From the IMG/VR virus record IMGVR_UViG_2718218136_000003: DNA of 35,535 nt; one strand, given 5' to 3'. Below, one piece after another: positions 901 to 26,788 of this stretch (position 1 is its first letter; each line of letters begins with the position of its first letter). The position numbers were made by a program, and so were the translations under genes. Origin of the DNA: a virus. Taxonomy: Duplodnaviria > Heunggongvirae > Uroviricota > Caudoviricetes. The notes beneath the pieces are model-generated. The model was not told the DNA's origin and made no database searches. It saw only the letters and a program-made list of their open reading frames with translations.

Positions 901-1314
901 GATCGTATGTGCCTTTATGATTGGTCTGTAGATAGTGTAGAGCAGAAAACAAAAGGTGGAGTCAGAACAGGATGAAAGTCGGAGGATAAAAAGTCAGTTC
1001 AAGTATGGAGGATTCAGTGGTTACCACCAGGAGCTTGCAATGGGGACAGCGAATACTAACGGCTGCCACCGATAAATTTCAAAAAAGAGCATATGCCTAA
1101 TATTCAACCAAACAGTGGCATCTTAAATATACTATTCCAAATATATTAAAGCCCCCATGGAGTTACCCTGAAGGGCCTCAATGTCCGTAATTCCTACTTA
1201 TGTAGGAAATGTTGTACAGAACATTTATTATAATCCTATTCAATTATAATAATCATGCCATTATTATATTTAAACACTAGAGAGTGTCGTTGGTATTTAA
1301 TGGGGGAAGGTGAG

Positions 1315-1632
1315 ATGAAAAAGATAGCTGCTATATCATTAATTAGTATTTTTATTATGTCTGGTTGTGCTGTGCATAATGATGAGACAAGTATCGGTAA
1401 ATTTGGTCTTGCATATAAAAGTAATATTCAGCGTAAACTCGATAACCAATACTACACCGAAGCCGAAGCTTCTTTAGCCAGGGGCAGAATATCTGGTGCA
1501 GAAAATATAGTAAAAAATGATGCAGCCCATTTCTGTGTTACTCAGGGCAAAAAAATGCAGATAGTTGACCTGAAGACAGAAGGTGCAGGATTACATGGCG
1601 TCGCTCGTCTGACATTCAAATGTGGAGAGTGA
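1315..1632 (+). CDS. yegR: Small lipoprotein (signal peptide with lipobox-like SGC), 105 aa; positionally equivalent to E. coli yegR
   Basis: ORF 1255-1632 trimmed to internal ATG at 1315 preceded by GGGGGAAGGTGAG Shine-Dalgarno-like sequence; N-terminus MKKIAAISLISIFIMSGCA is a lipoprotein signal. Confidence 0.6.
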   Translation: MKKIAAISLISIFIMSGCAVHNDETSIGKFGLAYKSNIQRKLDNQYYTEAEASLARGRISGAENIVKNDAAHFCVTQGKKMQIVDLKTEGAGLHGVARLTFKCGE

Positions 1633-5214: not shown

Positions 5215-5486
5215 GCATTCGTATAGAAATTGGCGAACGTTATGTCGTTACCAGTGACAGCTTTCAGTTTATTCTCCATGAGAAAAAGAGAGCGGAAAGC
5301 GGTAAAAACGCCGGTCAGGAGTGGCTGGCGGTGGTTGGTTATTACCCGAAATTAAGCCAGCTCGTTTCCGGCCTGATGCATCACGATATTCTGACCGGAA
5401 GCGCAAAGTCTTTTGCTGATTTAAACGCGCAGGTTGAGCAACTCAGCAAGCGTTGTTCAGAGGCTTTTGGCTCATATGGCCATTAA
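5211..5486 (+). CDS. Early protein (P2 orf83 position), 91 aa
   Basis: 91-aa ORF; its stop overlaps the start of A. Confidence 0.6.
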   Translation: MSIRIEIGERYVVTSDSFQFILHEKKRAESGKNAGQEWLAVVGYYPKLSQLVSGLMHHDILTGSAKSFADLNAQVEQLSKRCSEAFGSYGH

Positions 5487-7761
5487 AGCCTCCGGGCGTT
5501 TTGTCCCTCCGTCAGCATTTGCTGCAGGCACCGGTAAGACGTTTACCGGTGCTTATGCATGGAGCGCGCCACGCGAGGCTGTCGGGCGCGAAAGACCCCT
5601 TACACGTGACGAGATGCGTCAGGTGCAAGGTGTTTTATCCACGATTAACCGCCTGCCTTACTTTTTGCGTTCGCTGTTTACTTCACGCTATGACTACATC
5701 CGGCGCAATAAAAGCCCGGTGCACGGGTTTTATTTCCTCACATCCACTTTTCAGCGCCGTTTATGGCCGCGCATTGAGCGTGTGAATCAGCGCCATGAAA
5801 TGAACACCGACGCGTCGTTACTGTTTCTGGCAGAGCGTGACCACTATGCGCGCCTGCCGGGAATGAATGACAAGGAGCTGAAAAAGTTTGCTGCCCGTAT
5901 CTCATCGCAGCTTTTCATGATGTATGAGGAACTCAGCGATGCCTGGGTGGATGCGCATGGCGAAAAAGAATCGCTGTTTACGGATGAGGCGCAGGCTCAC
6001 CTCTATGGTCATGTTGCTGGCGCTGCACGTGCTTTCAATATATCCCCTCTCTACTGGAAAAAATACCGTAAAGGGCAGATGACCACGAGGCAGGCATATT
6101 CTGCCATTGCCCGTCTGTTTAACGATGAGTGGTGGACTCATCAGCTTAAAGGCCAGCGTATGCGCTGGCATGAGGCGTTACTGATTGCTGTCGGGGAGGT
6201 CAATAAAGACCGTTCTCCTTATGCCAGTAAACATGCCATTCGTGATGTGCGTGCACGCCGCCAGGCAAATCTGGAATTTCTTAAATCGTGTGATCTCGAA
6301 AACAGGGAAACCGGCGAGCGCATCGACCTTATCAGTAAGGTGATGGGCAGTATTTCTAATCCTGAAATTCGCCGGATGGAGCTGATGAACACCATTGCCG
6401 GTATTGAGCGTTACGCCGCAGCAGAGGGTGATGTGGGGATGTTTATCACGCTGACCGCGCCGTCAAAGTATCACCCGACACGTCAGGTCAGAAAAGGCGA
6501 AAGTAAAACCGTCCAGCTAAATCACGGCTGGAACGATGAGGCATTTAATCCAAAGGATGCGCAGCGTTATCTCTGCCGTATCTGGAGCCTGATGCGCACG
6601 GCATTCAAGGATAATGATTTACAGGTCTACGGTTTGCGTGTCGTCGAGCCACACCACGACGGAACGCCGCACTGGCATATGATGCTTTTTTGTAATCCGC
6701 GCCAGCGTAACCAGATTATCGAAATCATGCGTCGCTATGCGCTCAAAGAGGATGGCGACGAAAGAGGAGCCGCGCGAAACCGTTTTCAGGCAAAACACCT
6801 TAATCGGGGCGGTGCTGCGGGGTATATCGCGAAATACATCTCAAAAAACATCGACGGCTATGCACTGGATGGTCAGCTCGATAACGATACCGGCAGACCT
6901 CTGAAAGATACTGCCGCGGCTGTTACTGCATGGGCGTCAACGTGGCGCATCCCGCAATTTAAAACGGTTGGTCTGCCGACAATGGGGGCTTACCGTGAAC
7001 TACGCAAATTGCCGCGCGGTGTCAGCATTGCTGATGAGTTTGACGAGCGCGTCGAGGCTGCACGCGCCGCCGCAGACAGTGGTGATTTTGCGTTGTATAT
7101 CAGCGCGCAGGGTGGGGCAAATGTCCCGCGCGATTGTCAGACTGTCAGGGTCGCCCGTAGCCCGTCGGATGACGTTAACGAGTACGAGGAAGAGGTCGAG
7201 AGAGTGGTCGGCATTTACGCGCCGCATCTCGGCGCGCGTCATATTCATATCACCAGAACGACGGACTGGCGCATTGTGCCGAAAGCTCCGGTCGTTGAGC
7301 CTTTGACTTTAAAAAGCGGCATCGCCGCGCCTCGGAGTCCTGTCAATAACTGTGGAAAGCTCACCGGTGGTGATACTTCGTTACCGGCTCCCACACCTTC
7401 TGAGCACGCCGCAGCAGTGCTAAATCTGGTTGATGACGGTGTTATCGAATGGAATGACCCGGAGGTTGTGAGGACGCTCAGGGGTGCATTAAAACACGGC
7501 CTGAAAACACCAAATCGTCAGCAAAGAAACGGAAGCCCGTTAAAACCACATGAAATAACACCGTCGGCCAGACTGACCCGGTCGGAACGATTGCAAATTA
7601 CCCGTATCCGCGTTGACCTCGCTCAGAACGGTATCAGGCCGCAACGATGGGAGCTTGAGGCGCTGGCGCGTGGCGCGACAGTAAATTATGACGGGAAAAA
7701 ATTCACGTATCCGGTCGCTGATGAGTGGTCGGGATTCTCAACAGTAATGGAGTGGACATGA
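5476..7761 (+). CDS. A: Replication initiation protein A (rolling-circle nicking protein), 761 aa
   Basis: ORF 5434-7761 trimmed to ATG at 5476, giving 761 aa as in P2 A; contains the HUH-type motif region (…PHHDGTPHWHMMLF…) and the YxxK-like region (AGYIAKYISK). Confidence 0.9.
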   Translation: MAIKASGRFVPPSAFAAGTGKTFTGAYAWSAPREAVGRERPLTRDEMRQVQGVLSTINRLPYFLRSLFTSRYDYIRRNKSPVHGFYFLTSTFQRRLWPRIERVNQRHEMNTDASLLFLAERDHYARLPGMNDKELKKFAARISSQLFMMYEELSDAWVDAHGEKESLFTDEAQAHLYGHVAGAARAFNISPLYWKKYRKGQMTTRQAYSAIARLFNDEWWTHQLKGQRMRWHEALLIAVGEVNKDRSPYASKHAIRDVRARRQANLEFLKSCDLENRETGERIDLISKVMGSISNPEIRRMELMNTIAGIERYAAAEGDVGMFITLTAPSKYHPTRQVRKGESKTVQLNHGWNDEAFNPKDAQRYLCRIWSLMRTAFKDNDLQVYGLRVVEPHHDGTPHWHMMLFCNPRQRNQIIEIMRRYALKEDGDERGAARNRFQAKHLNRGGAAGYIAKYISKNIDGYALDGQLDNDTGRPLKDTAAAVTAWASTWRIPQFKTVGLPTMGAYRELRKLPRGVSIADEFDERVEAARAAADSGDFALYISAQGGANVPRDCQTVRVARSPSDDVNEYEEEVERVVGIYAPHLGARHIHITRTTDWRIVPKAPVVEPLTLKSGIAAPRSPVNNCGKLTGGDTSLPAPTPSEHAAAVLNLVDDGVIEWNDPEVVRTLRGALKHGLKTPNRQQRNGSPLKPHEITPSARLTRSERLQITRIRVDLAQNGIRPQRWELEALARGATVNYDGKKFTYPVADEWSGFSTVMEWT

Positions 7762-8213
7762 TGGCAAAAATTCACGAGGTAAAGCTGCACGCAAAATATT
7801 TCGACCTTGTGCTGGAAGGAAAGAAACGCGCAGAGTTTCGGAAAAATGACCGTAATTATGAGCGCGGGGACACGTTGATTTTGCATGAATGGGGGCAGGG
7901 TGTGTATACGGGGCGAAAGGTTGAAGCCCGGATAACAGATGTTACTGACCTGTCAGACTGGCTGGAAGATTATGTCTTGCTAAGTATTGAGCTGCTTAAT
8001 ACAGGCGCATATGAGATTGTGAACTGGAAAGAACTTAGTGAGCGTGGTCTGTTATTCAGAATTAATCATGAAATTATGCATAAGCTCGGCCTTGCTGTTA
8101 TGTATGAACCAGAGACGGGAATGTCTGGCGGGGCAATGGTTGCCACGGATGGAGCATGGAACTATTCAGATGAACAGATGGAGCGTGCACAGCAAAACGG
8201 GTGGCTTGGATAA
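7758..8213 (+). CDS. ASCH/PUA-like (DUF3850-type) protein (P2 orf91 position), about 151 aa
   Basis: ATG at 7758 overlapping the A stop; N-terminal region (KIHEVKLHAKYFDLVLEGKKRAEFRKNDRNYERGDTLILHEW) resembles ASCH-domain proteins as I recall them. Confidence 0.65.
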   Translation: MMAKIHEVKLHAKYFDLVLEGKKRAEFRKNDRNYERGDTLILHEWGQGVYTGRKVEARITDVTDLSDWLEDYVLLSIELLNTGAYEIVNWKELSERGLLFRINHEIMHKLGLAVMYEPETGMSGGAMVATDGAWNYSDEQMERAQQNGWLG

Positions 8214-8490: not shown

Positions 8491-8648
8491 TTGACATTCA
8501 TATTTTTACTGCGTTGGTGCTGTTTTTTGACGGTTGAAAGGAGTTATCTCGGAGAGCTAAAGCTAACAACTTACAAATATTCAAAAGTAAGCTTCCTGTT
8601 GCTAACATAAGGTCGATTTTTTATGTGGATGATGCAAAAAGGATAGCT

Positions 8649-9380
8649 ATGGATACTATAATCGCTTTTCTATCACTCGCTTTTTTTGTTGCTTTTTTCA
8701 TCGGGTTAATCAAGCCATCACTGGTGCGAATGCCAAGCCGCAAACGTGCAAGTGCGGTTTATCTCGGAGGAGGTTTTGTATTGAGCATAATTGGTTCAAT
8801 ACTCTATCCAACAGAAAAAAGCCAGCCAGTTGCTAAAACTGAAACATCAACCGTTGTAGAACACCAAGTCCAAAAAACATTCGAATATGGTGAAAAAACA
8901 CTCAAGGAATATCGGAGCGAGCCAAAGAAAACTCGACACGATATTGTGAATAGTTACATTGACTTTAAGAAAGTTCCAGTCACCGCATCAGATGCATTTT
9001 ATGCCTGCATGAGTGAGTATACATTTACCAAAGATGATGAGTTGAAACTCGGTGATGTTCTTGGGTGGTGCTTTAATGATTATGAAAATGACCCGAGTTC
9101 ACTAAATAATAAAATCAATCTTGATACATTTCAGAGTAATTTTAGTGGTTGGGATGGTTCTTATCGTCCATTGGAAAAACTAATTAAAGATAATATGAAC
9201 GATGATTCATCTTATAAACATGTATCAACGGTATATCATTTAGTTTTGAATAAAGACCCGCACGCCATTGTGAAAACGACGTTTCGCGGCACTAATGCTT
9301 ATGGTGGCATGGTCAAACAGACTGTAGCAGCGCGAGTTGACGTGCGAACGGGTGAGATCGATTCAATACTCGACAATTAA
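8649..9380 (+). CDS. Uncharacterised membrane-anchored protein, 243 aa: two predicted N-terminal TM helices plus ~170-aa soluble domain; cargo in the tin/old slot
   Basis: ORF 8625-9380 trimmed to ATG at 8649 with AAGGA Shine-Dalgarno 6 nt upstream; hydrophobic stretches IIAFLSLAFFVAFFIGLI and AVYLGGGFVLSIIGSILY; AT-rich codon usage unlike the phage backbone. Confidence 0.6.
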   Translation: MDTIIAFLSLAFFVAFFIGLIKPSLVRMPSRKRASAVYLGGGFVLSIIGSILYPTEKSQPVAKTETSTVVEHQVQKTFEYGEKTLKEYRSEPKKTRHDIVNSYIDFKKVPVTASDAFYACMSEYTFTKDDELKLGDVLGWCFNDYENDPSSLNNKINLDTFQSNFSGWDGSYRPLEKLIKDNMNDDSSYKHVSTVYHLVLNKDPHAIVKTTFRGTNAYGGMVKQTVAARVDVRTGEIDSILDN

Positions 9381-9400
9381 ATAATATAGTGACAGCTCCG

Positions 9401-9460
9401 TCAGTGATGAAACTTGCTTTTAGTCTTGGCGGGGTTGAGCAATGAGTCTTGCAAGGTGTT
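9401..9460 (+). repeat. Copy B of the ~60-bp imperfect direct repeat, running into the ribosome-binding site and start codon of cargo gene 2
   Basis: Manual alignment to 8431-8490; copy B ends GTTAGC immediately before ATG 9464. Confidence 0.6.
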
Positions 9461-9463
9461 AGC

Positions 9464-10120
9464 ATGCGTAGAATGGAAGCTGCTTGGACGTGGGGTATTC
9501 ATATGAATTTAAAAATTTTCGGCATAATTGTCCTTTCTGCTTTGATGTTCGTTTTAGGTTTTTTTCTCGGTGGTTTTAATTGGGAATGGGCTGATAAGAA
9601 TTATGCAGGTGAGGTGGCGTTGTGGAGTATGTTAGGAGGGTGGTTATCCGCAATTGCAACTCTGTTTGCCGTGTTGGTTTCATTATATATGGCGTATCAA
9701 GCTACTCAGAATGAGATTGAAAAAATCAGGGTTACTCATGGAGTAAGTATGAGTGTCACTCATGACAATGAGTTAAGTTGTAATCTCATTATTCAGAACT
9801 TGAGAAATATGAAAGTGAATATTACTGGTGTTTTTTTGTCTCTAGGTAAATCATCAGGTAAGTACTCTTTGGATAAAGTAATTGACAATCGTAATATAAC
9901 GCTTTCATATAAAGGTGAAACAGAAAAGGTACAATTTGTAATCCATTCTGGGTATATTTGGTGGTCAATGTATAAATTATTCGATATGGATAAGAACATA
10001 GGTTTTGAAAAGGGTAAGATCTTGATAACAACCAACCTCAATACATATGAATTTGATTTGCCAAAAGAATATTTAAGAGCTTTTGAGAAAGCTTATTCGG
10101 AGTATCAGACAAAAAAATAA
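9464..10120 (+). CDS. Uncharacterised membrane-anchored protein, 218 aa: two predicted N-terminal TM helices plus ~150-aa soluble domain; cargo in the tin/old slot
   Basis: ORF 9449-10120 trimmed to ATG at 9464 with AAGGTG 5 nt upstream; hydrophobic stretches IFGIIVLSALMFVLGFFLGGF and WSMLGGWLSAIATLFAVLVSLYMAY; AT-rich. Confidence 0.6.
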   Translation: MRRMEAAWTWGIHMNLKIFGIIVLSALMFVLGFFLGGFNWEWADKNYAGEVALWSMLGGWLSAIATLFAVLVSLYMAYQATQNEIEKIRVTHGVSMSVTHDNELSCNLIIQNLRNMKVNITGVFLSLGKSSGKYSLDKVIDNRNITLSYKGETEKVQFVIHSGYIWWSMYKLFDMDKNIGFEKGKILITTNLNTYEFDLPKEYLRAFEKAYSEYQTKK

Positions 10121-10249
10121 TGAGCTGCATGCAAAAGGTGCATGTTTTTGCATGTGCTAAGTTCACTGGTTTTGTGTATATCGCTTCAGATCTAGCGTGG
10201 TTCCGGGGAGGGCATGCAACTGCATTAAAACCGCTCCATGAAGCGGGCG

Positions 10250-10268
10250 GGCGAGGCGGGGAAAGCAC
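10250..10268. other. cos site: 19-nt cohesive-end sequence GGCGAGGCGGGGAAAGCAC
   Basis: Exact string found about 170 bp beyond the Q stop codon, at the position of cos in P2; matches the P2 cohesive-end sequence as I recall it. Confidence 0.7.
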
Positions 10269-18737: not shown

Positions 18738-19167
18738 TGCCGTCACGGTGCTGAAAACTAACCCCGATATGCTGCGGATATTCGTGGATAACGGGAGAAT
18801 TGCCTCCACACTGGCGGCGTCGTTGTCATTCGAAAAGCGTTACACGCTCAATGTCATTGTGACCGACTTTACCGGTGATTTTGACCTGCTCATCGTGCCG
18901 GTGCTGGCGTGGCTGCGGGAAAATCAGCCCGACATCATGACCACCGACGAAGGTCAGAAAAAGGGCTTCACGTTTTATGCAGACATCAACAATGACAGCA
19001 GCTTTGATATCAGCATCAGCCTGATGCTGACCGAGCGCACGCTGGTCAGTGAGGTGGACGGCGCACTACATGTGAAGAATATCCCGGAACCCCCGCCGCC
19101 GGAGCCGGTCACCCGCCCGATGGAGCTGTATATCAATGGCGAACTGGTGAGCAAGTGGGATGAATGA
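18700..19167 (+). CDS. R: Tail completion protein R, 155 aa
   Basis: 155-aa ORF, P2 R length and position. Confidence 0.85.
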   Translation: MLKPDSLRRALTDAVTVLKTNPDMLRIFVDNGRIASTLAASLSFEKRYTLNVIVTDFTGDFDLLIVPVLAWLRENQPDIMTTDEGQKKGFTFYADINNDSSFDISISLMLTERTLVSEVDGALHVKNIPEPPPPEPVTRPMELYINGELVSKWDE

Positions 19168-19612
19168 GTTTAAGCGTTTTGAAGACCGGCTGACCGGACT
19201 GATTGAGTCGCTGTCACCGTCAGGGCGTCGGCGACTGAGCGCCGAACTGGCGAAACGTCTGCGGCAGAGTCAGCAGCGTCGGGTGATGGCACAGAAAGCC
19301 CCGGATGGCACACCCTATGCGCCACGCCAGCAGCAGAGCGCCAGAAAAAAGACCGGTCGTGTTAAGCGAAAAATGTTTGCGAAACTTATCACCAGTCGTT
19401 TTTTGCATATCCGCGCCAGCCCTGAACAGGCATCAATGGAGTTTTACGGCGGGAAGTCACCGAAAATCGCCAGCGTGCATCAGTTCGGTCTGTCGGAAGA
19501 AACCAGGAAAGACGGTAAGAAAATTGATTATCCGGCGCGTCCTCTGCTCGGCTTTACCGGTGAGGATGTGCAGATGATTGAAGAGATTATCCTGGCTCAC
19601 CTTGAGCGTTAG
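19160..19612 (+). CDS. S: Tail completion protein S, 150 aa
   Basis: 150-aa ORF, P2 S length and position. Confidence 0.85.
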   Translation: MNEFKRFEDRLTGLIESLSPSGRRRLSAELAKRLRQSQQRRVMAQKAPDGTPYAPRQQQSARKKTGRVKRKMFAKLITSRFLHIRASPEQASMEFYGGKSPKIASVHQFGLSEETRKDGKKIDYPARPLLGFTGEDVQMIEEIILAHLER

Positions 19613-19642
19613 TTTTATCCAGGCAGAGGCTGATGCGCAATT

Positions 19643-19678
19643 AAACATTGAGCGGCCATGCTGGTCGCTCAATGTTTA
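19643..19678. terminator. Perfect 12-bp inverted repeat (AAACATTGAGCG / CGCTCAATGTTT) with 12-nt loop between convergent S and the orf30-slot gene; candidate bidirectional terminator
   Basis: Inverted repeat read from sequence in the 71-bp gap between convergent genes. Confidence 0.55.
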
Positions 19679-19683
19679 GAGGT

Positions 19684-20469
19684 TTATGAGTGATTTTTAT
19701 TTGATGCTTTGTATTCTACAACCTTCTTATTGGCGTAAAGGAATTTTGTATATGACAGGAATATAACCAGACCTGAAATGAAATAGATGAGGGATGTTAT
19801 TAATAATGCTTTTTTTTGGCTGTTATTATCTTTAATCTCCTGACTTAACCATTCGGAGTCCTCCTCGTTTAGCTGTAAGAGCTTATTGCAGGCGATCTCA
19901 GGAAGTGTGTCTTTTATAAATACGTTTCGTAGCCTCTTGCAATCGGCAAGGCTATAAGTTTTATTGAATTCAACTGTTTTATTGTTGAAGGATAAAAGAA
20001 CTTTGTCACTATAAACATAGTACATCATATTTTTATATGGTATGCCTATGGCATCTCTTACTATAGCGGATTGTTTGTTGTGTATATAACATGCGAAGAG
20101 AATATAAATAATACTGGACAGAATTACAATTATTGTTTTAATTATGTGTGGTGGTTTTGTTATGTCACCCCAGAAGCGAGTAAGAAAAAAATACGATGTT
20201 TTTAGTTTTCCATCAATCAGCCCCTGCTGTATCATTCTCACATCTTCGATGCCTGATACATTGATTCCGTTAATTATTTTAAATAGTTGAATGTCGCGCC
20301 ATTTTTTGTCGAGCATTTTTAACTTTCTGTCTGAATACTCAAAATTGAAATGATGTGCAATAAACCTCATAAGATTACTTTTACCAAAGGTAATAAATGT
20401 TAATGCTATTAATAAAAATAGATACAAAGAGATAAACCACCACGCATTAGTCACATTATCACTGAACAT
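19684..20469 (-). CDS. Uncharacterised AT-rich integral membrane protein, 261 aa (P2 orf30 slot)
   Basis: Opposite strand to flanking tail genes; three strongly hydrophobic segments (WWFISLYLFLLIALTFITF, IIKTIIVILSSIIYILFACYI, ALLITSLIYFISGLVIFLSY); GAGGAGAG Shine-Dalgarno before ATG; Lys/Asn/Ile-rich composition. Confidence 0.6.
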   Translation of the reverse strand: MFSDNVTNAWWFISLYLFLLIALTFITFGKSNLMRFIAHHFNFEYSDRKLKMLDKKWRDIQLFKIINGINVSGIEDVRMIQQGLIDGKLKTSYFFLTRFWGDITKPPHIIKTIIVILSSIIYILFACYIHNKQSAIVRDAIGIPYKNMMYYVYSDKVLLSFNNKTVEFNKTYSLADCKRLRNVFIKDTLPEIACNKLLQLNEEDSEWLSQEIKDNNSQKKALLITSLIYFISGLVIFLSYTKFLYANKKVVEYKASNKNHS

Positions 20470-20552
20470 TACGCTCTCCTCGAATGTTGTATGGTCGTTC
20501 TACAAATGAATCCAGATAGCATAACTTTTATATATTGTGCAATCTCACACGC

Positions 20553-21188
20553 ATGAACACTCTCGCAAATATTCAGGAACTCGCGCGCGCACTGCGCAAC
20601 ATGATTCGTACCGGCCTTGTCGTCGAAACCAACCTTAAAGCCGGTCGCTGCCGTGTGCAGACCGGTGGCATGTGCACTGACTGGCTTCAGTGGCTGACCC
20701 ATCGTGCCGGACGTTCGCGCACATGGTGGGCACCTTCCGTGGGGGAACAGGTGCTGATTCTGGCTGTGGGCGGTGAACTCGACACGGCGTTCGTTCTGCC
20801 GGGGATTTATTCCGGCGATAACCCCGCGCCGTCTGCGTCGGCGGATGCCCTGCATATCCGTTTCCCTGACGGGGCGGTGATTGAGTATGAACCCGAAACC
20901 AGTGCACTCACGGTAAGCGGAATTAAAACGGTCAGCGTGACGGCTTCTGATTCTGTTACCGCCACGGTGCCGGTGGTCATGGTGAAAGCGTCAACCCGCA
21001 TCACCCTGGACACACCGGAGGTGGTCTGCACCAACAGGCTGATTACCGGCACGCTGGAAGTACAGAAGGGCGGGACGATGCGCGGCAACATTGAACACAC
21101 CGGCGGTGAACTCTCATCAAACGGTAAGGTACTGCATACCCATAAACACCCCGGCGACAGCGGCGGCACAACCGGGGGACCTCTATGA
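20553..21188 (+). CDS. V: Baseplate spike / hub protein V, 211 aa
   Basis: ORF 20535-21188 trimmed to MNTLANIQEL, giving the P2 V length. Confidence 0.85.
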   Translation: MNTLANIQELARALRNMIRTGLVVETNLKAGRCRVQTGGMCTDWLQWLTHRAGRSRTWWAPSVGEQVLILAVGGELDTAFVLPGIYSGDNPAPSASADALHIRFPDGAVIEYEPETSALTVSGIKTVSVTASDSVTATVPVVMVKASTRITLDTPEVVCTNRLITGTLEVQKGGTMRGNIEHTGGELSSNGKVLHTHKHPGDSGGTTGGPL

Positions 21189-26032: not shown

Positions 26033-26788
26033 CTATTCCTTGGCCTCTTTATTTTTCTCGCCATCGCCAATGTAAAGAAGATAATCGTTTAAGGATATCC
26101 TTCCGGAGGGGCCGGTCCATGTTATCAATCCGTTCTCACGAAGATTAAATAATGCTTCCATGAACTCATTATCGTTAAAAGAATGATCCTCTGAGAACAG
26201 AATGTTCATTTTTCTCAATAGTTCTTCCACTTTAATCTTTTCATATCGCCTTATCAGACTTAGTGCTTTACGACGCATTAAGATTGTAGGTACTGCTTGT
26301 GAACGAATGGTTTTTTGTATTCCACTATCAAGAACTTTCTTGATCTTGCTCTCTAACTCTTTGATTTTAGTTTCATTATCTCCATTGGACTTAAGCTTTT
26401 CATCAACGATGCAAATAATTTCCTGACTAATGCTGTTCTTGAGGTTGTTTATTTTTTCTTCATTGTTGAGAATCTCATCAGAGCTTCCTGCATGGGGTTT
26501 TTTCCATATGTGCTGACGCATATCCGTTACCGTATCTCTCATCATAGAGAATGTATCTGAATATAACTTGTCAAATATTTTTTCCAGTCGTTCGACACTT
26601 GCCTGGATGTCTTTTGCTGCTTTAGTTGTCTCTTTAGAAGCCTCATTCGACATTTTATAAAAAACAAAAGAAAGCCAAATAGCCCCAATGGCGAGTACTA
26701 ATGAGGCTATTGTGGCAATAAAACCTATTATTGTTATTGCTGTATCTAATGTGCCTGCTGCATCTGTGACTACTGTTTCTGCTGCCAT
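26033..26788 (-). CDS. Uncharacterised AT-rich membrane-anchored coiled-coil protein, 251 aa (P2 Z/fun slot)
   Basis: Opposite strand to the tail genes; N-terminal hydrophobic helix (ITIIGFIATIASLVLAIGAIWLSFVFY) followed by a Lys/Glu-rich region; GAGGAT Shine-Dalgarno before ATG at 26788. Confidence 0.6.
   Translation of the reverse strand: MAAETVVTDAAGTLDTAITIIGFIATIASLVLAIGAIWLSFVFYKMSNEASKETTKAAKDIQASVERLEKIFDKLYSDTFSMMRDTVTDMRQHIWKKPHAGSSDEILNNEEKINNLKNSISQEIICIVDEKLKSNGDNETKIKELESKIKKVLDSGIQKTIRSQAVPTILMRRKALSLIRRYEKIKVEELLRKMNILFSEDHSFNDNEFMEALFNLRENGLITWTGPSGRISLNDYLLYIGDGEKNKEAKE

What the first reader, a model, noticed from the sequence alone, without database searches (positions are those of the whole stretch)
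19613..20552. orf30 slot between S and V holds an AT-rich polytopic membrane protein on the opposite strand
The 261-aa protein (19684-20469, minus strand) has three strongly hydrophobic segments and Lys/Asn/Ile-rich composition, in sharp contrast to the surrounding tail genes. It is convergent with S across a perfect 12-bp hairpin and its start abuts the V upstream region. This matches the position of the nonessential low-GC orf30 in P2, a third cargo site; function is unknown.
Basis: partly seen in the sequence, partly recalled or inferred. Interest (0 to 1): 0.55.

Follow-up and report, generated by a model that had tools for sequence, protein, structure and literature searches.

The report
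Phage P2 orf30 membrane-protein gene
This is the already catalogued but still function-less gene orf30 of phage P2, an AT-rich membrane-protein gene wedged backwards between two tail genes. It belongs to a fast-diverging family that repeatedly occupies this same spot in related prophages and most plausibly helps the lysogen keep other phages out.

Summary
Window 19684-20469 (-) is an intact 261-codon gene in a 940-bp cassette of about 32-37 % GC. The cassette fills the whole space between tail genes S and V of a P2-type prophage.

The gene is the ortholog of P2 orf30, not just a gene in its position: 92 % DNA and 85 % protein identity, no gaps, phrog_2407. P2's annotated terminator hairpin and its Ogr-site/pV region are conserved around it. 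The feature is therefore already known. Its function is not.

New here:
- Orf30 belongs to a very divergent family of 250-270-aa proteins with three predicted transmembrane segments, remotely related to Pfam DUF6216.
- At least three other clades (21-25 % identity) lie antisense at the same slot, among them the BL21 prophage's "DUF6216" gene. V and W stay 42-82 % identical.
- A preprint reports that the BL21 gene is bound by H-NS and derepressed in Δhns ΔstpA.
- Among 5426 complete E. coli genomes the slot is empty in about 1024 and holds orf30 in 459.

Orf30 matches no known defence, exclusion or holin family and no solved fold.

Best guess (about 0.4): an H-NS-damped, prophage-expressed inner-membrane protein that excludes superinfecting phages. 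Interest is low to moderate.

The parts
19613..20552 (.). Whole exchangeable S-V cassette (940 bp, low GC): terminator hairpin, orf30 and the orf30/V control region
   Evidence: Similarity to slot-empty and other-cargo P2-like prophages stops at the S stop codon (+2 nt) and resumes exactly at the V ATG (loci L002-L005). GC profile. The full 940 bp is 92-99 % identical to P2 and other Peduovirus records.
19642..19678 (.). Bidirectional terminator-like hairpin shared by the convergent S (O operon) and orf30 transcripts
   Evidence: Maps onto P2's annotated 'putative rho-independent terminator for O operon', 9397-9433. RNA folds: -32.5 kcal/mol (z -6.0) on the + strand and -22.4 (z -5.5) on the - strand.
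19684..20469 (-). orf30 coding sequence, 261 aa: predicted three-TM inner-membrane protein, ortholog of P2 Orf30
   Evidence: ORF. 85 % identity to P2 Orf30. phrog_2407 at E 5e-143. Six alleles all keep 261 codons; dN/dS is 0.33-0.60 overall (one near-identical pair, 5 differences, gives 1.0) and 0.21-0.34 in the two loops.
20386..20442 (-). TM1 (aa 10-28); the short N-terminus carries no K/R and is predicted periplasmic
   Evidence: Hydropathy and charge counts; helix in the AlphaFold model. Fastest-evolving part of the gene, dN/dS about 1.
20149..20385 (-). Loop 1 (aa 29-107), predicted cytoplasmic helical domain carrying the family motif D-x-Q-L-F-K..N-G-I-N-V...D-A..I......G
   Evidence: 14 K/R against 8 D/E. 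Conserved columns G29, Q61, G68, D76, G87 across 28 family members. dN/dS 0.21-0.28.
20086..20148 (-). TM2 (aa 108-128)
   Evidence: Hydropathy peak 2.49; helix 109-134 in the model.
19810..20085 (-). Loop 2 (aa 129-220), predicted periplasmic domain: four-stranded beta-sheet plus helices, with two conserved cysteines (C177, C194)
   Evidence: Secondary structure from the model. C194 is invariant and C177 nearly so in 28 sequences. This region plus TM3 aligns with the DUF6216 clade (hhalign probability 73 %, E 3e-5).
19750..19809 (-). TM3 (aa 221-240), followed by a basic cytoplasmic tail (aa 241-261; conserved N247, K254)
20476..20481 (-). Shine-Dalgarno GAGGAG, 6 nt upstream of the orf30 ATG
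   Evidence: Read directly from the sequence. In five other alleles it reads AAGGAG.
20484..20511 (+). Ogr/activator binding site of the late promoter pV (mapped from the P2 annotation); lies 15-42 bp upstream of the orf30 start codon, inside the orf30 leader or promoter region
   Evidence: P2 feature 10239-10266, 'activator binding site; activation of pV promoter', mapped by offset. The 83-bp spacer is 99 % identical in six alleles whose orf30 coding sequences differ by up to about 12 %.
19160..19612 (+). Gene S (tail completion), left border of the slot
   Evidence: P2 annotation; 96 % DNA identity to P2 S.
20553..21188 (+). Gene V (baseplate spike), right border of the slot
   Evidence: 96 % DNA identity to P2 V.

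Best explanation
**Shown or strongly supported.** The gene is the ortholog of bacteriophage P2 orf30. It sits in a self-contained AT-rich cassette that replaces the whole S-V intergenic region of a P2-type prophage. The cassette brings a bidirectional terminator, which stops the convergent late O-operon transcript and the orf30 transcript, and the control region that P2 uses for its Ogr-dependent V promoter. The product is predicted to be an inner-membrane protein with three transmembrane helices.

**Inferred topology.** N-terminus out; an 80-residue helical loop in the cytoplasm; a 90-residue beta/alpha domain with two conserved cysteines in the periplasm; a basic C-terminal tail in the cytoplasm.

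**Inferred family.** It belongs to a very divergent family related to Pfam DUF6216. Members of this family sit at this same slot, antisense, in several divergent P2-like phages.

**Inferred mechanism (about 0.4).** Like P2's other AT-rich cargo genes (old, tin, fun), it is a lysogen-expressed anti-phage function. Most likely it is a superinfection-exclusion protein that acts at the inner membrane, hindering DNA entry or the membrane-penetrating machinery of incoming phages, with the periplasmic domain as the contact surface. Because of its AT-richness it is kept at a low level by H-NS/StpA. Its weak promoter shares the short spacer with pV. It would therefore be made from the repressed prophage and not as part of the late programme.
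For: **Identity**
- 92 % DNA and 85 % protein identity, full-length phrog_2407 match, same flanking features as P2.

**A real gene under selection**
- The chance of an open frame this long is 1.9e-9.
- Six alleles keep 261 codons without indels. dN/dS is 0.33-0.60 overall (one near-identical pair gives 1.0) and 0.21-0.34 in the two soluble loops, at dS similar to the flanks.
- There is a good Shine-Dalgarno.

**Membrane protein**
- Hydropathy and positive-inside charge counts; AlphaFold model with pLDDT 84.1 and pTM 0.73.
- Two conserved Cys fall in the loop predicted to be periplasmic.

**Family**
- 44 representatives at 50 % identity, about 25 of them full length (alignment).
- 5 of 28 members hit Pfam DUF6216 (best E 8.7e-7).
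- Profile-profile match to the BL21 DUF6216 clade: probability 73 %, E 3e-5 over 115 columns.

**Slot association**
- The BL21(DE3) 'DUF6216 family protein' lies between S and V, antisense. It is present in 111 E. coli genomes, always under the S annotation.
- P0026 lies between S and V. P0021 lies beside V. P0032 overlaps the end of an S gene, though its other neighbour is unidentified.
- Slot proteins are 21-25 % identical to each other, while V is 42-82 % and W 51-71 % identical.

**Lysogen-side expression and host benefit**
- The gene is antisense to the late operon.
- A Pantoea relative lies directly after cI-yebY-int on the same strand, overlapping the int stop.
- Relatives persist in degraded prophage remnants, one of them beside an Old/AriA-like ATPase.

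**H-NS**
- Preprint 10.64898/2026.09.05.749240 reports an H-NS ChIP peak on the BL21 DUF6216 gene and its up-regulation in Δhns ΔstpA. GC is 0.33 there and 0.32 here.

**The slot can hold defence genes**
- A RelA_SpoT protein matching PADLOC PDC-S33 (E 1e-16) occupies it in E. coli SC434.

**Precedents for the mechanism**
- YmfE/Kunado is an H-NS-silenced prophage membrane protein that defends against T5-like phages without blocking adsorption.
Against: - There is no experimental phenotype for orf30. The P2 record says only 'nonessential', and papers list it as unknown.
- To my knowledge, the exclusion phenotypes of P2 lysogens have been mapped to old, tin and fun, not to orf30.
- No hit in PADLOC, Pfam or NCBIfam.
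- No homology to SieA, SieB or YmfE.
- No sigma-70 consensus promoter upstream of the gene. Together with H-NS silencing of the BL21 homolog, this means the protein may be nearly absent in ordinary lysogens.
- About two thirds of close E. coli relatives do without any gene in the slot.
- The link to DUF6216 is sub-threshold for Orf30 itself.
- Guilt by association with other P2 cargo is weak evidence.
Confidence: 0.4

Rival explanations
1. Abortive-infection effector. Orf30 is a dormant membrane toxin. Its conserved cytoplasmic loop senses a product of an infecting phage; the protein then oligomerises and collapses the membrane potential, killing the cell before the phage completes its cycle.
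For: It has the same cargo context as the best explanation. The most strongly conserved motif lies in the predicted cytoplasmic loop. H-NS silencing of the BL21 homolog would suit a potentially toxic protein. The BL21 protein has a faint sub-threshold hit to a holin family (Phage_holin_2_3, E 0.037).
Against: No sensor or enzymatic domain was detected. No partner gene sits in the cassette. The conserved periplasmic Cys-containing domain is unexplained by this model. Known single-gene membrane effectors usually work with a separate sensor.
Confidence: 0.15
2. Lysogenic-conversion factor unrelated to phages. Orf30 would be an envelope protein that benefits the host in another way, for example immunity to a pore-forming bacteriocin or contact-dependent toxin, tolerance of envelope stress, or colonisation fitness.
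For: Relatives are retained after the prophage decays. orf30 is present in 459 of 5426 complete E. coli genomes, many from human and poultry extra-intestinal isolates. Three-TM inner-membrane proteins with small soluble loops resemble immunity proteins of pore-forming colicins (my own knowledge, not tested). One distant relative lies next to a DsbA-like gene.
Against: No toxin gene accompanies it. The family is tied to P2-like phage slots rather than to bacteriocin or secretion loci. No homology to any known immunity family was found in Pfam or NCBIfam.
Confidence: 0.22
3. Phage-intrinsic accessory function. Orf30 would modulate P2's own cycle, for example lysis timing, membrane events during its own DNA entry or exit, or control of the adjacent V promoter, either by transcriptional interference or through the protein.
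For: Family members sit at this particular slot next to the spike gene V in divergent P2-like phages. The orf30 leader or promoter overlaps the Ogr site and pV region, and that 83-bp spacer is 99 % conserved. In slot-empty phages the V upstream region has an entirely different sequence.
Against: It is annotated nonessential in P2. It is absent from about two thirds of closely related E. coli prophages, which have 96-97 % identical S and V. It is antisense to the late operon with no late-promoter element of its own. Relatives also occur after int and in prophage remnants that lack tail genes.
Confidence: 0.15
4. Non-functional leftover. The ORF would be a decaying or selfish AT-rich insert with no selected protein function.
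For: Overall dN/dS is fairly high (0.33-0.60). No function is known, no family annotation exists, and the promoter is weak or absent.
Against: The open frame is far beyond chance. All six alleles are intact with no indels, and dN/dS is 0.21-0.34 in the loops. Motifs are conserved across relatives at 17-25 % identity. The AlphaFold model is confident. In 459 of 463 matching genomes the match covers at least 80 % of the cassette.
Confidence: 0.05

Closest known systems
Bacteriophage P2 Orf30 (AAD03281.1; phrog_2407)
   Same: Same gene. 85 % protein identity over all 261 residues, the same S-V slot, the same antisense orientation, and the same terminator hairpin and Ogr-site/pV spacer.
   Different: An allelic variant. 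Most substitutions fall in TM1 (aa 1-30), where dN/dS is about 1. Neither allele has a known function.
Pfam DUF6216 (PF19723), e.g. the BL21(DE3) P2-like prophage protein WP_000115390.1 (ECD_RS04470)
   Same: Same slot between S and V, same antisense orientation, similar length (268 aa), similar GC (0.33), several TM segments, and the two-Cys motif in the loop before the last TM. The profile-profile match covers loop 2, TM3 and the tail (probability 73 %, E 3e-5). Some Orf30-family members hit the Pfam model in their N-terminal half.
   Different: Orf30 itself gives no DUF6216 hit even at E < 10. Pairwise identity is at noise level. The N-terminal halves differ: the BLASTP and profile alignments to the BL21 protein do not extend over Orf30's conserved 80-residue loop 1, while Pfam matches only its residues 72-237. 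DUF6216 also has no known function. The only data are H-NS binding and derepression in Δhns ΔstpA.
P22 SieA (superinfection exclusion, inner-membrane block of DNA injection)
   Same: A small prophage-encoded inner-membrane protein, encoded antisense at the end of the late structural operon. [quoted passage not shown] It is expressed from the prophage (PMC10883804). This is the working analogy for the mechanism.
   Different: No detectable homology (hhalign probability 0.3 %). SieA is 164 aa, has a mapped promoter, and has demonstrated targets (ejection proteins gp16/gp20). None of that is known for Orf30.
Kunado / YmfE of prophage e14
   Same: An AT-rich, H-NS-silenced prophage cargo gene for a multi-TM protein. 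It protects against T5-like phages without blocking adsorption (preprint).
   Different: Not homologous to Orf30 or to the DUF6216 clade (probability below 1 %). Different prophage and different locus.
P2 cargo genes old, tin and fun(Z)
   Same: Non-essential, low-GC, horizontally acquired genes in the other variable regions of the same phage. All have anti-phage phenotypes (Rousset 2022, PMC9122126; regions named in PMC3091744).
   Different: No relationship of these genes to Orf30 is known or was tested here. They act by other mechanisms, and they have phenotypes whereas orf30 has none.

Membership tests
P2 Orf30 ortholog group (phrog_2407) | Full-length sequence similarity to P2 Orf30 | tested here: met
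   BLASTP: 85 % identity, 261/261 aligned, E 1e-167. phrog_2407: E 5e-143, positions 1-261 of 261.
P2 Orf30 ortholog group (phrog_2407) | Located between tail genes S and V, transcribed against them, flanked by the O-operon terminator and the pV activator site | tested here: met
   The whole 940-bp cassette is collinear with P2 9368-10304.
Pfam DUF6216 (PF19723) | Score above Pfam's gathering threshold (27.3 bits) | tested here: not met
   No DUF6216 hit for Orf30 at E up to 10. Relatives P0038, P0035, P0050 and P0052 score 13-24 bits. The BL21 slot protein scores 44.5 bits.
Pfam DUF6216 (PF19723) | Remote homology at profile level | tested here: inconclusive
   hhalign of the Orf30-family alignment against the BL21-clade alignment: probability 73 %, E 3e-5, 115 columns, C-terminal half only. 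5 of 28 family members hit the Pfam model at E up to 0.01, best 8.7e-7.
P22 SieA-type superinfection exclusion proteins | Sequence homology to SieA | tested here: not met
   hhalign probability 0.3 %; SieB 0.2 %.
P22 SieA-type superinfection exclusion proteins | Inner-membrane location | tested here: inconclusive
   Prediction only: three hydrophobic helices, positive-inside charge pattern and an AlphaFold model. No fractionation data.
P22 SieA-type superinfection exclusion proteins | Blocks DNA entry of superinfecting phage when expressed from the prophage | not testable with these tools
   Needs plating, adsorption and DNA-injection assays.
Kunado (YmfE) | Sequence homology to YmfE | tested here: not met
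   hhalign probability 0.1 % (Orf30 family) and 0.6 % (DUF6216 clade).
Catalogued anti-phage defence systems (PADLOC-DB v2.0.0) | Match to any defence-protein model | tested here: not met
   0 families at E up to 10.
Holins / lysis proteins | Holin-family match, late-operon expression, adjacency to the endolysin gene | tested here: not met
   No holin hit for Orf30. The gene is antisense to the late operon. P2's lysis genes Y, K and lysABC lie upstream of R and S. Only the BL21 relative gives a sub-threshold Phage_holin_2_3 hit (E 0.037, 14.5 bits against a cut-off of 28.8).
H-NS-silenced prophage cargo | H-NS binding and derepression in hns/stpA mutants | not testable with these tools
   Reported for the BL21 slot homolog only (preprint). 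For this gene only the low GC (0.32) is shown.

The most novel reading that the evidence does not exclude
Orf30/DUF6216 would be a previously unrecognised family of prophage inner-membrane exclusion or defence proteins. It would be the characteristic, rapidly diversifying resident of the S-V slot of P2-like phages, next to the spike gene. Its activity would be hidden in laboratory lysogens by H-NS silencing. That would explain why P2 orf30 has had no phenotype since P2 was sequenced.
Probability: 0.35. Interest if true: 0.55.

Novelty: already known. Interest (0 to 1): 0.3.

Why it matters
P2 is a textbook temperate phage, and orf30 is one of its few genes with no assigned role. About 8 % of complete E. 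coli genomes carry it (459 of 5426).

This work ties it to a wider membrane-protein family (DUF6216) that sits at the same tail-gene slot in divergent P2-like prophages, and notes that a homolog in BL21 is silenced by H-NS. Together these turn an old 'hypothetical protein' into a simple experiment: clone the gene, derepress it and challenge with phages.

If the protein is an exclusion or defence function, it adds a new single-gene membrane mechanism to the repertoire. It would also add a hotspot to the P2 defence map, which so far stresses the region near cos and the Z/fun locus.

If no phenotype appears, the gene remains an ordinary prophage accessory gene of unknown function.

Tried and rejected
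- **Family libraries.** Pfam, NCBIfam and PADLOC scans of Orf30 gave only noise (DUF6535 at E 0.002, below cut-off; an antiporter fragment at E 0.012). Rejected.
- **Word-index protein search.** It found only 5 clusters, which would have suggested an orphan gene. The exhaustive HMMER search showed the family is wider.
- **Homology to candidate analogues.** P22 SieA, P22 SieB and e14 YmfE/Kunado are all negative.
- **Promoter.** No sigma-70 match of at least 9/12 lies upstream of orf30. A relaxed scan found only an implausible site overlapping the start codon. I therefore do not name a promoter.
- **Ogr-site spacing.** I tried to check the TGT/ACA dyad spacing from memory of the consensus. I could not verify it and make no claim about it.
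- **Other cargo in this prophage.** The ORFs at 8625-9380, 9449-10120 and 26033-26788 have no Pfam or PADLOC hits.
- **Literature.** Searches for 'orf30' with P2 terms found only position and nonessentiality statements, no functional work. Rousset 2022 does not mention orf30.
Full report
**1. The observation**

A GAGGAG ribosome-binding site lies 6 nt upstream (sequence).

GC falls to 0.32-0.37 across 19600-20600, against 0.55-0.60 on both sides. The ORF itself is 0.323, against 0.513 for the window. In DNA this AT-rich an open frame of this length is not a chance event. With the cassette's own composition the probability is 1.9e-9. The longest open frame in 2000 shuffles was 183 codons, against 271 observed.

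Three hydrophobic stretches (aa 10-28, 108-128, 221-240) and the Ile/Leu/Lys/Asn-rich composition are confirmed.

The 12-bp perfect inverted repeat (19644-19655 / 19667-19678) is real. As RNA it extends through a G-U pair and three more pairs to a 3-nt loop. The 71-nt stretch folds at -32.5 kcal/mol on the + strand (z -6.0) and -22.4 on the - strand (z -5.5). S ends at 19612 and V starts at 20553, so the finding's coordinates are precisely the S-V intergenic space.

**2. What it is**

The 940 bp match bacteriophage P2 (AF063097 9368-10304) at 92.3 % and other Peduovirus genomes at 88-99 %. The protein is 85 % identical to P2 Orf30 over all 261 residues with no gap. It hits phrog_2407 ('unknown function') end to end at E 5e-143.

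The P2 record annotates orf30 as 'nonessential'. It places a putative terminator for the O operon at the hairpin and an 'activator binding site; activation of pV promoter' between orf30 and V. Mapped onto the window, these fall at 19642-19678 and 20484-20511.

So this is P2 orf30 itself in a P2-type prophage. The window matches P2 at about 97 % over most of the first 24 kb. The literature available to me lists orf30 only as one of three regions where P2-like phages carry horizontally acquired genes, function unknown (PMC3091744; PMC6823313). Rousset et al. 2022 do not mention it.

**3. Anatomy of the slot**

I queried complete E. coli genomes with S-orf30-V.

| Arrangement | Genomes (of 5426) |
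|---|---|
| S..V region of this type present | 1582 |
| orf30 in the slot | 459 |
| Empty slot (66-bp S-V spacer junction matched) | 1024 |

Rare alternatives in the slot are:
- a 359-aa RelA_SpoT protein matching PADLOC candidate PDC-S33, antisense;
- a 347-aa unknown protein, antisense;
- a 246-aa ORF on the sense strand, the type described for phage R18C.

Comparing the junctions shows that similarity stops at the S stop codon (+2 nt) and resumes exactly at the V ATG. The entire intergenic region is exchanged as a unit. That unit includes the terminator and the region P2 uses as its Ogr-dependent V promoter.

Among six orf30 alleles, the 83 bp between the two start codons are 99 % identical. 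The coding sequences differ by up to about 12 %.

**4. Is the gene under selection?**

All six alleles examined keep 261 codons with no indel. Pairwise dN/dS is 0.33-0.60 overall; one nearly identical pair, with 5 differences, gives 1.0. It is 0.21-0.34 in the two soluble loops and about 1 in TM1.

dS is similar to that of the flanking genes: 0.16 for orf30 against 0.16 for S and 0.11 for V. dN/dS is 0.04 for S and 0.20 for V.

It is therefore a real protein-coding gene. Its protein sequence evolves faster than that of its structural neighbours.

**5. The protein and its family**

The charge distribution fits this topology:

| Segment | Residues | K/R | D/E | Predicted side |
|---|---|---|---|---|
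| N-terminus | 1-9 | 0 | 1 | periplasm |
| Loop 1 | 29-108 | 14 | 8 | cytoplasm |
| Loop 2 | 130-221 | 14 | 12 | periplasm |
| C-terminal tail | 241-261 | 5 | 1 | cytoplasm |

A word-index search found only five close clusters. An exhaustive HMMER search of 1.84 billion representatives found 44 relatives. About 25 are full length, at 250-270 aa and 17-40 % identity.

Their alignment keeps the three TM segments and three conserved features:
- a loop-1 motif, D-x-Q-L-F-K..N-G-I-N-V...D-A..I......G;
- two cysteines in loop 2 (C177, and the invariant C194), which would suit a periplasmic disulfide;
- N247 and K254 in the tail.

With this alignment AlphaFold gives pLDDT 84.1 and pTM 0.73. Loop 1 is helical. 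Loop 2 is a four-stranded sheet plus helices. A long helix runs into TM3. Neither this model nor the earlier one has an informative neighbour in the PDB or BFVD.

**6. Link to DUF6216 and to this slot**

Five of the 28 aligned members hit Pfam DUF6216 weakly (best E 8.7e-7). Orf30 itself does not.

A literature search for DUF6216 led to a 2026 preprint on H-NS. [quoted passage not shown]

In BL21(DE3) that 'DUF6216 family protein' (885114-885920, minus strand) lies between the S-type 'virion morphogenesis protein' and 'baseplate assembly protein V', antisense. This is the same slot. The gene is in 111 E. coli genomes, always overlapping S.

A profile of its clade matches the Orf30-family profile at probability 73 %, E 3e-5. 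The match runs over 115 columns covering loop 2, the Cys motif, TM3 and the tail. Pairwise comparison is at noise level.

Further Orf30-family clades sit at or next to the same slot:
- P0026 lies between Phage_tail_S and Phage_base_V.
- P0021 lies next to V, divergently.
- P0032 converges on the 3' end of an S gene and overlaps it; its other neighbour is unidentified.

Across these phages the slot proteins are 21-25 % identical to each other, while V is 42-82 % and W 51-71 % identical. All slot genes have GC 0.30-0.35.

A Pantoea clade instead sits directly after cI-yebY-int of a 186/P2-like prophage, on the same strand and overlapping the int stop. It survives where the prophage has been lost. 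DUF6216 genes also persist in prophage remnants, one of them beside an Old/AriA-like ATPase.

**7. Mechanism**

*Shown:* identity with P2 orf30, cassette structure, the bidirectional hairpin, purifying selection, and family membership. The polytopic membrane character is predicted, not shown.

*Inferred:*
- Topology and the disulfide.
- Expression from the prophage rather than in the late programme. The reasons are antisense orientation, no late-promoter element of its own, and a relative placed in a cI-int operon.
- Damping by H-NS, by analogy with the BL21 homolog and the equal GC.
- Function.

My preferred function is an inner-membrane superinfection-exclusion or anti-phage protein, at a probability of about 0.4. 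The grounds are the anti-phage roles of P2's other AT-rich cargo, the RelA_SpoT candidate defence gene in the same slot, fast protein divergence, retention in remnants, and two precedents. The first is P22 SieA: inner membrane, blocks DNA injection, encoded antisense at the end of the late operon, with sequence types below 30 % identity. The second is YmfE/Kunado, an H-NS-silenced prophage membrane protein active against T5-like phages. Neither is homologous to Orf30, so both are analogies only.

Against this reading:
- No phenotype has ever been attached to orf30.
- There is no defence-database hit.
- No consensus promoter is present.
- Most close relatives lack the gene.

Rivals are an abortive-infection membrane effector (0.15), a non-phage lysogenic-conversion role (0.22), a phage-intrinsic accessory role (0.15) and no function (0.05).

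**8. Comparison with known systems, and novelty**

The gene is a member of the P2 Orf30 ortholog group; both defining features were met. It is not a member of Pfam DUF6216 by Pfam's own threshold, although remote homology is likely. It belongs to no catalogued defence, Sie or holin family.

The feature is already known. It has been annotated in the P2 GenBank record and grouped as phrog_2407. The added value is the family and slot pattern and the link to H-NS.

**9. Verdict**

The thing is ordinary in kind: a known prophage accessory gene. It carries a modestly interesting, cheaply testable hypothesis. Interest 0.3.

Noticed in passing
L002 754-819 (E. coli A5); compare window 19613-20552: In slot-empty P2-like prophages the 66-bp S-V spacer carries a GC-rich hairpin (GCCGCCGG-N6-CCGGCGGC). 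Nothing in it resembles P2's annotated Ogr site or pV region. The classical pV control region therefore seems to travel with the orf30 cassette, and how V is transcribed in the roughly 1024 slot-empty genomes is unclear.
   Followed up: partly
L003 834-1913 (-), E. coli SC434: The same S-V slot holds a 359-aa RelA_SpoT-domain protein (Pfam E 1.8e-21) that matches the PADLOC candidate system PDC-S33 (E 1e-16). It may be a toxic alarmone-synthetase type defence gene.
   Followed up: partly
L004 856-1899 (-); L005 771-1511 (+): Two further slot occupants with no family hits: a 347-aa antisense ORF, and a 246-aa sense-strand ORF of the type reported for phage R18C.
   Followed up: partly
L008 6001-6777; L014 6001-6777 (Pantoea): A distant Orf30-family member lies immediately after cI-yebY-int of a 186/P2-like prophage, overlapping the int stop. 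In another strain it remains at the same rplS-aroF site with only a 79-aa ORF upstream and the prophage gone.
   Followed up: partly
L006 35115-35173 (BL21(DE3) 885114-885172): The BL21 DUF6216 gene and gene S overlap by 59 bp at their 3' ends, convergently. There is no intervening hairpin, unlike the P2/orf30 arrangement.
   Followed up: no
window 8625-9380 (+), 9449-10120 (+), 26033-26788 (-): The prophage's other low-GC cargo ORFs lie in the region near cos and in the Z/fun-type slot (GC 0.35-0.39). Each encodes a protein with N-terminal transmembrane segments, and none has a Pfam or PADLOC hit.
   Followed up: partly
window 1255-1632 (+): A 125-aa low-GC ORF with a lipoprotein-like signal (…IMSGC) lies between host yegS (1-900) and the prophage integrase (1897-2910). 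This is the int-att position that a 2026 NAR paper lists as a minor P2 defence hotspot.
   Followed up: no
window 7725-8213 (+): A 162-aa protein with ASCH/DUF3850 and DUF7415 domains lies just downstream of the large 775-aa ORF (5434-7761), at the edge of the variable region.
   Followed up: no
L015 5001-8849: A DUF6216 gene survives in a degraded P2-like remnant next to ybjL. With it are a CI-type repressor and a 662-aa ATPase matching AriA, Old and GajA models (best E 2e-20).
   Followed up: partly
L027 66-752: One distant family member (P0017) lies next to a divergently oriented DsbA/thioredoxin-like gene. This is suggestive given the two conserved cysteines in the family's predicted periplasmic loop, but the contig is too short to judge.
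   Followed up: no
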